Assembly (NCBI RefSeq): GCF_044324785.1
Contig: NZ_CP172127.1
Length of the DNA stretch: 64,000 nucleotides
Source: Escherichia coli
Lineage (GTDB): Bacteria; Pseudomonadota; Gammaproteobacteria; Enterobacterales; Enterobacteriaceae
Direction: 5' to 3' (one strand)
The notes under the pieces are model-generated. The model was not told the origin of the DNA. It searched no databases and worked only from the letters and a program-made list of their open reading frames with translations. The position numbers and the translations under genes were made by a program. Of the stretch, positions 12,001-12,532 are shown piece after piece; within the stretch, counting starts at the first letter, position 1; every line of letters starts with the position of its first letter.

Positions 12001-12377
12001 GAAGCTGACCAGACAGTCGCCGCTTCGTCGTCGTCCTCTTCGGGGGAGACGGGCGGAGGGGAGGAAAGTCCGGGCTCCATAGGGCAGGGTGCCAGGTAAC
12101 GCCTGGGGGGGAAACCCACGACCAGTGCAACAGAGAGCAAACCGCCGATGGCCCGCGCAAGCGGGATCAGGTAAGGGTGAAAGGGTGCGGTAAGAGCGCA
12201 CCGCGCGGCTGGTAACAGTCCGTGGCACGGTAAACTCCACCCGGAGCAAGGCCAAATAGGGGTTCATAAGGTACGGCCCGTACTGAACCCGGGTAGGCTG
12301 CTTGAGCCAGTGAGCGATTGCTGGCCTAGATGAATGACTGTCCACGACAGAACCCGGCTTATCGGTCAGTTTCACCT
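12001..12377 (+). ncRNA. rnpB: RNase P RNA (M1 RNA)
   Basis: Sequence begins GAAGCTGACCAGACAGTCGCCGCTTCGTCGTCGTCCTCTTCGGGGGAGACGGGCGGAGGGGAGGAAAGTCCGGGC and ends ...CGGTCAGTTTCACCT; contains the conserved GGAAAGTCCGGGC and ACAGAACCCGGCTTA motifs. Recognised from memory of M1 RNA. Confidence 0.92.
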
Positions 12378-12532
12378 GTTTTACGTAAAAACCCGCTTCG
12401 GCGGGTTTTTGCTTTTGGAGGAGCGGAAAGATGAATGACTGTCCACGACGCTATACCCAAAAGAAAGCGGCTTATCGGTCAGTTTCACCTGATGTACGTA
12501 AAAAAAACGCGTCGATAAGTTTTTGCTTTTGG
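12329..12532 (+). repeat. Two tandem copies of the rnpB 3'-end/terminator segment
   Basis: 12329..12418 (GATGAATGACTGTCCACGACAGAACCCGGCTTATCGGTCAGTTTCACCT...GCTTTTGG) is repeated with divergence at 12430..12532 (GATGAATGACTGTCCACGACGCTATACCC...CTTATCGGTCAGTTTCACCTGATGTACG...GCTTTTGG). Confidence 0.65.
12387..12410 (+). terminator. rnpB intrinsic terminator
   Basis: AAAAACCCGCTTCGGCGGGTTTTT hairpin followed by a T-run immediately after the mature 3' end. Confidence 0.75.

What the first reader, a model, noticed from the sequence alone, without database searches (positions are those of the whole stretch)
12329..12532. Tandem partial duplication of the rnpB 3' end and terminator
The last ~50 nt of M1 RNA plus its terminator (12329..12418) recur in diverged form at 12430..12532. 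The second copy has an A-rich loop and a weaker hairpin (ACGCGTCGATAAGTTTTTGCTTTT). It could act as a backup terminator or be a slipped-replication remnant.
Basis: seen in the sequence. Interest (0 to 1): 0.3.

Follow-up and report, generated by a model that had tools for sequence, protein, structure and literature searches.

The report
Known repeat after RNase P gene
The duplicated tail of the RNase P RNA gene is real, but it is a short version of the long-known 113-bp tandem repeat that follows this gene in E. coli and its relatives, and its second "terminator" is dead.

Summary
Window 12328-12428 holds the last 50 nt of rnpB, terminator T1 and a spacer. It recurs at 12429-12541 with 84 of 100 aligned bases identical and one 12-nt insertion (local alignment score 106, against 13.8 ± 2.1 for shuffles). 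A decayed 21-nt start of a third unit lies at 12544-12564.

This is not a private slip of this strain. It is a short allele of the 113-bp tandem repeat distal to E. coli rnpB. K-12 has 3.5 copies, and complete E. coli genomes have 1-9 matching places. Homologous units follow rnpB in about 45 other Enterobacterales species. In all of them the repeat unit carries the same insertion, which replaces the J2/4 region of M1 RNA, and it sits next to that host's own terminator.

The second copy here has lost the 3' arm of its terminator hairpin (-4 kcal/mol, z = +0.7, against -19.4 kcal/mol for T1). "Backup terminator" is therefore not supported for this copy.

Each unit carries the 12-bp core CTTATCGGTCAG. 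Tyrosine-integrase islets that target rnpB, such as the flk flagellin islet, recombine at this core. In Cedecea and Klebsiella such islets sit in a repeat unit rather than in the gene.

I found no support for a conserved hairpin, a small protein or a known RNA family. Already known; low interest.

The parts
12001..12377 (+). rnpB, the gene for M1 RNA (RNase P RNA, bacterial class A)
   Evidence: Rfam RF00010, 318.6 bits, full-length model match. Lies between garK and yhaC, as in E. coli.
12328..12428 (+). Unit 1 (gene-proximal, 101 bp). It holds segment A (12328-12348: J18/2 plus the P2 3' strand), the native J2/4 AGAACC, segment B (12355-12378: the P4 and P1 3' strands and the M1 3' end), terminator T1, and the spacer AGGAGCGGAA.
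12387..12418 (+). T1, the intrinsic terminator of rnpB (AAAAACCCGC-TTCG-GCGGGTTTTT followed by GCTTTTGG). An A-tract before it and a T-tract after it make it a plausible two-way terminator.
   Evidence: -19.4 kcal/mol, z = -5.2 on the + strand; -13.9 kcal/mol, z = -3.5 on the - strand
12429..12541 (+). Unit 2 (a 113-bp repeat unit). It holds A' (12429-12449, identical to A), the h segment, B' (12468-12491, identical to B), a degenerate terminator and a spacer.
   Evidence: Homologous to the K-12 units. Weak partial RNase P match covering the model's 3' end (19.5 bits).
12450..12467 (+). The h segment, GCTATACCCAAAAGAAAG. It is a 12-nt insertion plus altered J2/4 and first P4 bases, replacing AGAACC of the gene. 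It is the mark of the repeat units in all taxa examined.
   Evidence: No covariation supports a hairpin.
12358..12369 (+). CTTATCGGTCAG inside rnpB. This is the core at which flk-type tyrosine-integrase islets recombine. It is unoccupied in this window.
   Evidence: attL and attR of the islets in E. coli ECC-1470 and NCTC11121; positions
12471..12482 (+). A second copy of the same 12-bp core, in unit 2. It is unoccupied in this window.
   Evidence: Repeat-unit cores are occupied in Cedecea (L010) and K. michiganensis (L042), with both island ends present.
12500..12532 (+). Degenerate terminator of unit 2 (AAAAAAAACGCGTCGATAAGTTTTTGCTTTTGG). The U-tract is kept and the 3' arm of the hairpin is lost.
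   Evidence: -4.0 kcal/mol, z = +0.72. Aligned to the intact CCCGTCAGTGCAAACTGGCGGG-type terminator and to the K-12 terminal remnant.
12544..12564 (+). Decayed start of a third unit (AGATGAATAAATATCTACGGT; 15 of 21 bases match A). It is identical in K-12.
12598..13785 (-). yhaC, the convergent neighbour. It is the start of an A+T-rich yhaC-yhaB islet that bounds the repeat array.
   Evidence: NCBIfam NF007262, 857.9 bits; GC 0.27-0.36

Best explanation
This is a short allele of the tandem repeat array that follows rnpB in E. coli, the '113-bp repeats' of K-12. It consists of the gene's own 3' end with terminator T1, one repeat unit, and the stub of a further unit.

A repeat unit is an old, non-functional copy of the M1 3' end. 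It keeps the P2, P4 and P1 3' strands. A 12-nt insertion and base changes destroy J2/4 and the first pair of P4. The unit is followed by a copy of the host's own terminator.

Inferred: the array changes length by unequal homologous recombination or slippage between units. Gene conversion against the selected gene copy keeps the gene-proximal units similar to rnpB, while distal units decay.

Shown: in this strain the single repeat unit has lost the 3' arm of its terminator hairpin. It cannot act as an intrinsic terminator, so T1 alone ends rnpB transcription.

The one sequence-defined property the unit retains is a second intact copy of the 12-bp core CTTATCGGTCAG, with an identical right flank. 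Tyrosine-integrase islets that target rnpB recombine at this core. The unit is therefore an empty secondary attachment site. An insertion there would leave the essential gene and T1 untouched.
For: Identity with the K-12 repeat: K-12 has 3.5 copies with a 113-bp period and 96% matches. Its units read AGATGAATGACTGTCCACGAC-GCTATACCCAAAAGAAAG-CGGCTTATCGGTCAG..., as in the window. The terminal remnant and stub (GTTTTTGCTTTTGGTGCACAGGGTAAGATGAATAAATATCTACGG) are identical in K-12 and the window.

Copy-number polymorphism: a 113-nt unit matches 5,398 of 5,426 complete E. coli genomes at 1-9 places per genome (median 2). 3,659 genomes hold at least 80% of a unit. The B2 strain IHE3034 has no repeat unit. 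O111 RM9322 has one unit plus a REP insertion.

Age: units with a homologous insertion follow rnpB in 47 loci from Enterobacter, Citrobacter, Klebsiella, Kosakonia, Cedecea, Pantoea, Erwinia, Pectobacterium, Serratia and others, and in Salmonella (about 6 units). The gene copy always comes first. The repeat units that lie directly after it are 11-15 nt longer than it, mostly 12 or 13.

Concerted evolution: the tail plus terminator of a repeat unit is on average 93% identical to the tail of that genome's own gene, against 64% between genomes.

Distal decay: the K-12 fourth unit, the REP-interrupted fifth unit and the stub are progressively degenerate.

Dead terminator.

Attachment core: the islet carrying the integrase and flkAB lies between rnpB and yhaC in 19 E. 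coli genomes. attL reads ...CCCGG-CTTATCGGTCAG-CTTCAACTTCTTCTAAAAC. attR reads X-arm-CTTATCGGTCAG-TTTCACC+T1. The integrase matches Pfam PF00589. In Cedecea sulfonylureivorans and K. michiganensis the same Y arm follows a repeat unit, and the X arm plus core plus host tail and terminator lies 2-3 kb further on.
Against: Persistence across an order of bacteria, and a similar array in Neptuniibacter, is long for a feature with no function. Conversion from the gene cannot maintain the h insertion itself.

The h types (GCTATACCC..., GCTCTTCATG..., TCCGCTTTCTATG...) do not follow genus boundaries. Simple vertical descent does not explain this.

Copy-number change by recombination and gene conversion are inferred from patterns, not observed. 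No transcript data were available, so read-through of T1 and any RNA role of unit 2 are untested.

That the K-12 repeats were described in the 1980s (Reed et al. 1982, Cell; Baer and Altman 1985, Science) rests on my memory. The papers are not in the held library.
Confidence: 0.78

Rival explanations
1. Backup (second) intrinsic terminator. Polymerases that read through T1 would stop at the unit-2 hairpin and U-tract.
For: In K-12 and most other taxa the repeat units carry intact hairpins nearly identical to T1, so arrays in general do supply tandem terminators. Unit 2 keeps the GTTTTTGCTTTT tract. 'rnpB T1' is a named, measured terminator (PMC3643576).
Against: 12491-12532 folds at -4.0 kcal/mol with z = +0.72. 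The 3' arm of the hairpin is deleted relative to intact units. The terminator scan finds nothing there. The same dead remnant is conserved in K-12 at the end of the array.
Confidence: 0.06
2. Selected landing pad or decoy attachment site. Repeat units would be maintained because they divert rnpB-targeting integrative elements away from the essential gene copy.
For: Each unit carries the 12-bp core with an identical right flank. Islets bounded by attL in a repeat unit and attR are present in Cedecea (L010) and K. michiganensis (L042), and a Y-arm remnant follows a repeat unit in Enterobacter sp. Bisph1. Insertion into the gene copy replaces the last bases of M1 and T1 with element DNA.
Against: Both E. 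coli flk islet subfamilies sit in the gene copy even though repeat units lay downstream, so diversion is at best partial. Only 19 of 5,426 E. coli genomes carry the islet. Nothing shows selection rather than mere consequence. It also does not explain the h insertion.
Confidence: 0.1
3. RNA-level element. After read-through of T1, unit 2 would offer alternative P2, P4 and P1 3' strands. Or a processed unit RNA would act as a decoy for the M1 5' strands or for the RnpA protein, or as an sRNA.
For: A' and B' are 100% identical to the M1 strands. The insertion lies at the position of the optional helix in the Rfam model. Units persist across genera.
Against: No conserved structure: RNAalifold predicts only 4 invariant pairs. 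The candidate h hairpin pairs in 76% of cells, against 75.8% in shuffles, with no covariation. The unit fold is no better than shuffles (z = -0.89). There is no promoter-like site in the unit and no Rfam family. The h segment is hardly more conserved than the tails (0.71 against 0.64).
Confidence: 0.04
4. Small-protein gene. The 37-codon ORF at 12431-12544 has GGAGG nine bases upstream, and its stop overlaps the next unit's ATG as ATGA in K-12. Under this reading it would encode a basic peptide.
For: The ORF and the Shine-Dalgarno-like GGAGG are present. The same ORF is repeated in the K-12 and Salmonella units.
Against: In most genera the same frame stops after 9 codons at TATGA. The ATG is part of the invariant M1 sequence. 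No NCBIfam match. RefSeq annotates nothing there. In the window the C-terminal half differs completely from K-12.
Confidence: 0.02

Closest known systems
The 113-bp tandem repeats distal to rnpB in E. coli K-12. The attribution is from memory: Reed, Guerrier-Takada, Altman et al. 1982, Cell 30:627; a Salmonella counterpart in Baer and Altman 1985, Science 228:999.
   Same: Same locus, same unit sequence (A'-h-B), same 113-bp period, same terminal remnant and stub.
   Different: The window has one repeat unit, against 3.5 repeat copies in K-12 (three units after the gene copy, the last with a decayed terminator). It has no REP/BIME insertion, and its only unit has the dead terminal-type terminator.
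Tandem terminators after stable-RNA operons (for example rrnB T1-T2; rnpB T1 is itself a standard terminator part, PMC3643576)
   Same: Arrays with intact units place several strong hairpin-plus-U-tract terminators in series after a highly transcribed RNA gene.
   Different: Here the second terminator is non-functional by sequence. The repeated unit also drags along 50 nt of the gene, which terminator redundancy does not need.
Partial 3' ends of tRNA and tmRNA genes at the borders of integrated islands (att duplications)
   Same: rnpB's 3' end is used in the same way. The flk islet supplies a new 3' end to the gene and displaces the old one to attR. Repeat units hold the same core.
   Different: Here the units are not att duplications. 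No island DNA lies between them. The island's X arm is unrelated to A'-h (score 12, against 12.4 ± 2.2 for shuffles). The unit could never have served as a working M1 3' end.
The flk genomic islet of E. coli H3/H35/H36/H47/H53 strains (Feng et al. 2008, J Bacteriol 190:4470, as cited in PMC3378880 and PMC5422975)
   Same: The islet found here in ECC-1470, NCTC11121 and EH10-18-47 carries a tyrosine integrase, a hin-like recombinase, flkA and flkB. It is flanked by direct repeats next to rnpB.
   Different: The islet is absent from the window, where only its empty target sites are present. That the target core lies in rnpB and is repeated in every unit comes from my reading of the junctions, not from those papers.

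Membership tests
rnpB-distal 113-bp tandem repeat of E. coli | Lies directly after rnpB, in the same orientation, with the gene's own 3' end as the first unit | tested here: met
   rnpB ends at 12377; the units are at 12328-12428 and 12429-12541
rnpB-distal 113-bp tandem repeat of E. coli | 113-bp period between repeat units (101 bp from the gene unit to the first repeat unit) | tested here: met
   Spacings of 101 and 113/114/115; K-12 spacings of 101, 113, 113
rnpB-distal 113-bp tandem repeat of E. coli | The unit carries GCTATACCCAAAAGAAAG in place of AGAACC of M1 RNA | tested here: met
   12450-12467; identical in K-12 unit 2
rnpB-distal 113-bp tandem repeat of E. coli | Each unit ends in a copy of the T1 hairpin | tested here: not met
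   The hairpin is lost in the window's only unit. This matches the terminal, degenerate unit of K-12 rather than its internal units, so membership holds as the terminal-unit type.
Intrinsic (Rho-independent) terminator, for 12500-12532 | A stable G+C-rich hairpin immediately before the U-tract | tested here: not met
   -4.0 kcal/mol, z = +0.72; not called by the scan
Intrinsic (Rho-independent) terminator, for 12500-12532 | A U-rich tract | tested here: met
   GTTTTTGCTTTT at 12519-12530
Intrinsic (Rho-independent) terminator, for 12500-12532 | Transcript 3' ends map there | not testable with these tools
   No transcript data available
attB of rnpB-targeting tyrosine-integrase islets (flk type) | Contains the core shared by attL and attR (CTTATCGGTCAG) | tested here: met
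   12358-12369 and 12471-12482; core defined
attB of rnpB-targeting tyrosine-integrase islets (flk type) | Repeat-unit copies of the core are actually used for integration | tested here: met
   attL in a repeat unit and attR 2-3 kb away, in L010 (Cedecea) and L042 (K. michiganensis). This is shown in other species, not in this window.
attB of rnpB-targeting tyrosine-integrase islets (flk type) | The integrase recombines this site in vivo or in vitro | not testable with these tools
   Excision by the islet integrase is reported in the literature (PMC3378880, citing Feng 2008). The site preference was not tested.
att duplication left by an island (attR or attL scar) | The sequence to the left of the core derives from the element's arm | tested here: not met
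   The X arm compared with A'-h or with the gene scores 12, against 12.4 ± 2.2 for shuffles
Structured RNA element | Conserved secondary structure with compensatory changes | tested here: not met
Small protein gene | Reading frame conserved among relatives | tested here: not met
   An in-frame TGA after 9 codons in most genera

The most novel reading that the evidence does not exclude
The repeat units are not junk. They would be kept by selection across Enterobacterales as harmless landing pads for integrative elements that target the 3' end of the essential RNase P RNA gene, or as an RNA-level decoy for M1 strands or RnpA. Under this reading the h insertion exists to make sure a unit can never be mistaken for, or recombined into, a working M1 3' end.
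Probability: 0.1. Interest if true: 0.6.

Novelty: already known. Interest (0 to 1): 0.22.

Why it matters
For this window it matters little. It is a copy-number allele of a repeat array seen when rnpB was first sequenced, and its second terminator is inactive.

Two practical points follow:

- The array is a natural variable-number repeat (1-9 matching places per complete E. coli genome). Short-read assemblies and annotation pipelines can collapse it or misread it.
- Anyone using "rnpB T1" fragments, or editing near rnpB, should know that each unit carries an attachment core for flk-type islets.

The wider pattern I met on the way could be worth a short comparative study. The same crippled copy of the M1 3' end is kept after rnpB from Escherichia to Pectobacterium and Serratia. 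It is homogenised with each host's own terminator, and islets use it as an integration site. That pattern is a property of the family, not of this finding.

Tried and rejected
1. Tandem Repeats Finder on the window found nothing, because there are only about 2 copies with an indel. The repeat was shown by pairwise alignment instead.

2. Repeat unit as attR or attP scar: rejected, because the island's X arm is unrelated to A'-h.

3. Prophage using rnpB as attB in E. roggenkampii: the phage genes lie beyond an islet remnant, and the record is a chromosomal fragment filed as a plasmid. This gives no evidence that the phage itself uses rnpB.

4. Phage and plasmid collections searched with the unit returned only mislabelled chromosomal records and generic terminator matches. 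IMG/VR scans for segment A and for the attL junction returned 0 hits.

5. Conserved hairpin in h: RNAalifold predicts none. A hand-drawn helix shows no covariation and pairs no better than shuffles.

6. Extra constraint on h: between-genome identity is 0.71, against 0.64 for the tails. That is not enough to argue selection.

7. Small ORF: not conserved, and no family match.

8. Rfam at permissive thresholds returned only a partial RNase P hit and generic terminator look-alikes.

9. Literature: the held library has no text on the rnpB repeats. Feng 2008 and the 1980s PNAS papers are not held.

10. The 436-aa ORF in the K. michiganensis islet has no Pfam match and no similarity to the flk integrases. 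I left it unexplained.

Full report
**What is there.** The window carries an E. coli-type garK-rnpB-yhaC-yhaB arrangement. rnpB is at 12001-12377 on the + strand (Rfam RF00010, 318.6 bits). garK ends just upstream, and yhaC (NCBIfam NF007262) converges from 13785 to 12598.

The last 50 nt of rnpB plus its terminator and a 10-nt spacer (12328-12428, 101 bp) are followed by a 113-bp diverged copy (12429-12541). Two blocks are identical in both copies:
- AGATGAATGACTGTCCACGAC, which I call A. It is J18/2 and the P2 3' strand of M1 RNA.
- CGGCTTATCGGTCAGTTTCACCTG, which I call B. It is the P4 and P1 3' strands and the M1 3' end.

Neither block occurs anywhere else in the 64 kb. Overall 84 of 100 aligned bases match, with one 12-nt gap. 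The local score is 106, against 13.8 ± 2.1 for shuffles. A decayed start of a third unit (AGATGAATAAATATCTACGGT) follows at 12544-12564.

**The two copies differ in two ways.**

First, between A and B the gene has AGAACC (J2/4 and the start of P4), while copy 2 has GCTATACCCAAAAGAAAG, which I call h. This is a 12-nt insertion plus changes that would wreck the catalytic core, so copy 2 could never be a working M1 3' end.

Second, the terminators differ. T1 (12387-12418) is a perfect 10-bp stem with a U-tract (-19.4 kcal/mol, z = -5.2). It also folds well on the other strand (-13.9 kcal/mol), so it may serve yhaC too. The corresponding part of copy 2 (12500-12532) folds at -4.0 kcal/mol, no better than shuffled sequence (z = +0.72). 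Alignment with intact units of related Escherichia and with the K-12 terminal remnant shows that the 3' arm of the hairpin has been deleted and only the GTTTTTGCTTTT tract remains.

**It is the known rnpB repeat.** K-12 MG1655 has 3.5 copies of a 113-bp unit directly after rnpB (Tandem Repeats Finder, 96% matches). The units have the same A-h-B sequence. After the third repeat unit the K-12 array decays. It holds a unit with a damaged terminator, then a REP/BIME insertion inside the remains of another unit. It ends with exactly the remnant and stub seen in the window (...GTTTTTGCTTTTGGTGCACAGGGTAAGATGAATAAATATCTACGG). The window's single repeat unit corresponds to the terminal, degenerate end of the K-12 array, without the internal units and without the REP insertion. 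Strain N3 has almost the same allele.

From memory, these 113-bp repeats were reported with the first rnpB sequence (Reed et al. 1982), and a Salmonella counterpart was reported in 1985. I could not retrieve either paper. PMC3643576 at least uses the name "rnpB T1" for the first terminator.

**Variation within E. coli.** A 113-nt K-12 unit finds 5,398 of 5,426 complete genomes, with 1 to 9 matching places per genome (median 2). 3,659 genomes hold at least 80% of a unit. In an evenly spaced sample of 60 genomes from that ranking, about a third match only at the gene's own tail.
- IHE3034 (phylogroup B2) has no repeat unit. Its T1 is fused to the terminal spacer and stub, and yhaBC is deleted.
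- O111 RM9322 has a different T1 hairpin, one unit and the REP insertion.

The array is a variable-number repeat, and the window holds one of its short alleles.

**Distribution beyond E. coli.** One scan of one genome per species looked for the A segment repeated at 96-126 nt spacing. It returned 47 loci in Enterobacter, Citrobacter, Klebsiella, Raoultella, Kosakonia, Lelliottia, Cedecea, Buttiauxella, Atlantibacter, Pantoea, Erwinia, Pectobacterium, Serratia, Rouxiella and others, plus Neptuniibacter. Salmonella (about 6 units) and K. pneumoniae turned up in mislabelled "plasmid" records.

In every array whose start lies within the locus the gene copy comes first. The repeat unit that lies directly after it is 11-15 nt longer than it, mostly 12 or 13. 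The insertion is alignable across genera (GCTATACCCAAAAGAAAG, GCTCTTCATGAAAGAAAG, TCCGCTTTCTATGAAAGAACG).

What follows B is host-specific. The tail and terminator of a repeat unit are 93% identical to those of the same genome's gene copy, but only 64% identical between genomes. That is the signature of an old array homogenised within each genome. The mechanisms, unequal crossing-over and gene conversion, are inferred. The decay of distal units in E. coli fits this picture.

The spacer before A' (GCTTTTGGAGGGGCAG) resembles rnpB's GCTTGAGCCAG upstream of P18, and Neptuniibacter units keep a P18-like remnant. The founding duplication therefore probably began upstream of P18.

**Tests for a function of the unit itself.**
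- RNAalifold on 32 units predicts only four invariant pairs.
- The pyrimidine-rich and purine-rich arms of h can be drawn as a hairpin. It pairs in 76% of cells, against 75.8% in column shuffles, and shows no covariation.
- h is barely more conserved between genomes than the tails (0.71 against 0.64).
- The unit has no promoter-like site.
- The unit has no Rfam match beyond a partial RNase P hit.
- The 37-codon ORF has a GGAGG upstream. In most genera that frame is cut by TGA after 9 codons, and it matches no protein family.

None of these supports an RNA or protein role.

**An unexpected link to integrative elements.** In E. coli EH10-18-47 the similarity to the window stops inside the end of rnpB, and a tyrosine integrase gene follows. 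Nineteen complete E. coli genomes have such an integrase next to rnpB.

In ECC-1470 and NCTC11121 the element is intact between rnpB and yhaC. It carries an integrase (Pfam PF00589), a YagK/YfjJ protein, a hin-like recombinase, the flagellin gene flkA and the repressor gene flkB. This is the flk islet of the literature (PMC5422975; PMC3378880).

The junctions define a 12-bp core, CTTATCGGTCAG:
- attL is rnpB...CCCGG-core-CTTCAACTTCTTCTAAAAC. The islet gives the E. coli gene an Enterobacter-type 3' end.
- attR is X-arm-core-TTTCACC-T1, followed by the repeat units.

The window has this core, unoccupied, in rnpB (12358-12369) and again in unit 2 (12471-12482) with an identical right flank.

In Cedecea sulfonylureivorans and K. 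michiganensis the same Y arm follows a repeat unit rather than the gene. The X arm, core, host tail and host terminator lie 2-3 kb further on. Repeat units have therefore been used as attachment sites.

The units are not themselves att scars, because the X arm is unrelated to A'-h. Whether units are kept because they offer a harmless landing pad is open. Both E. coli islet subfamilies chose the gene copy although units lay downstream, which argues against strong diversion.

**Verdict.** The finding is a real duplication, correctly located. It is an allele of a long-known, polymorphic repeat array and not a new feature. The proposed backup-terminator role is contradicted by the sequence of this copy.

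The best-supported account is a recombination-maintained tandem array. Its surviving unit here has no terminator activity and no detectable function of its own, apart from being a second, empty attachment site for rnpB-targeting islets.

Novelty: already known. Interest: low. A modest side interest is the order-wide conservation of the crippled M1 3' copy and its use by integrative elements.

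Noticed in passing
L057/L058 (E. coli EH10-18-47), L059 19940-29460 (ECC-1470), L060 19940-30760 (NCTC11121): A 9-10 kb islet carrying a tyrosine integrase, a hin-like recombinase, flkA and flkB sits between rnpB and yhaC in 19 of 5,426 complete E. 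coli genomes. It recombines at CTTATCGGTCAG inside rnpB and replaces the last bases of M1 RNA with an Enterobacter-type end (GGTCAGCTTCAAC).
   Followed up: yes
L010 4584-7620 (Cedecea sulfonylureivorans); L042 (K. michiganensis), reverse-strand positions 1025-3260: Small integrase-less islets are bounded by the same Y and X arms but inserted in a repeat unit, not in rnpB. The cargo in Cedecea is PAAR/S-type pyocin toxin genes. The cargo in Klebsiella is a 436-aa ORF with no Pfam match.
   Followed up: partly
L001 2810-2940 (K-12): A REP/BIME pair (GCCGGATGCGGCG... and AGGCCTGATAAGCG...) is inserted in a decayed fifth repeat unit of the K-12 array. It is absent from the window and from strain N3.
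   Followed up: partly
window 12598-15100: The yhaC-yhaB region is strongly A+T-rich (GC 0.27-0.36, against 0.5-0.6 in garK and rnpB). It is missing from the B2 strain IHE3034 and from Salmonella, where the tdc operon follows the repeats directly. It looks like an acquired islet. YhaB (189 aa) matches no Pfam or NCBIfam model.
   Followed up: partly
window 12330-12434 and 12431-12544; L001 2482-2592: ORFs of 34 and 37 codons start at the ATG inside the invariant AGATGAATG. In E. coli the repeat-unit ORF has GGAGG nine bases upstream, and in K-12 each stop overlaps the next start (ATGA). The frame is not conserved outside Escherichia and Salmonella.
   Followed up: yes
L023 5590-6400 (Neptuniibacter pectenicola): A marine Oceanospirillales species has 4-5 units of 136 bp after rnpB with the same layout: the same A segment and a 13-nt net insertion at J2/4. 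The inserted sequence is different, and a P18-like remnant is kept. I cannot tell whether this is common descent or convergence.
   Followed up: partly
L035 (Atlantibacter sp. RC6), reverse-strand positions 410-650: The second unit has an intact J2/4 (GACAGAACC) and lacks the h insertion. This is either a fresh duplication of the gene's end or a unit converted by the gene copy.
   Followed up: no
L050/L053/L054 (NZ_CP109732.1), L051 (NZ_LN868944.1), L052 (NZ_CP129771.1): Three PLSDB 'plasmids' of 91 kb, 728 kb and 692 kb carry rnpB. The first also carries the core genes nusA, infB, rpsO and ftsH. They are chromosomal fragments filed as plasmids.
   Followed up: yes
L051 2520-3300 (Salmonella Senftenberg): The Salmonella array of about 6 units mixes two terminator hairpin types (CCCGCTTCGGCGGG and CCGTCAGTGTAAGCTGGCGG). 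The same two types occur as alternative T1 alleles in E. coli (K-12 against O111 RM9322).
   Followed up: no
(alignment A1): The three h types do not follow genus boundaries. Pantoea, Lelliottia and Klebsiella/Raoultella each hold two types. This points to old polymorphism or horizontal exchange of units.
   Followed up: no
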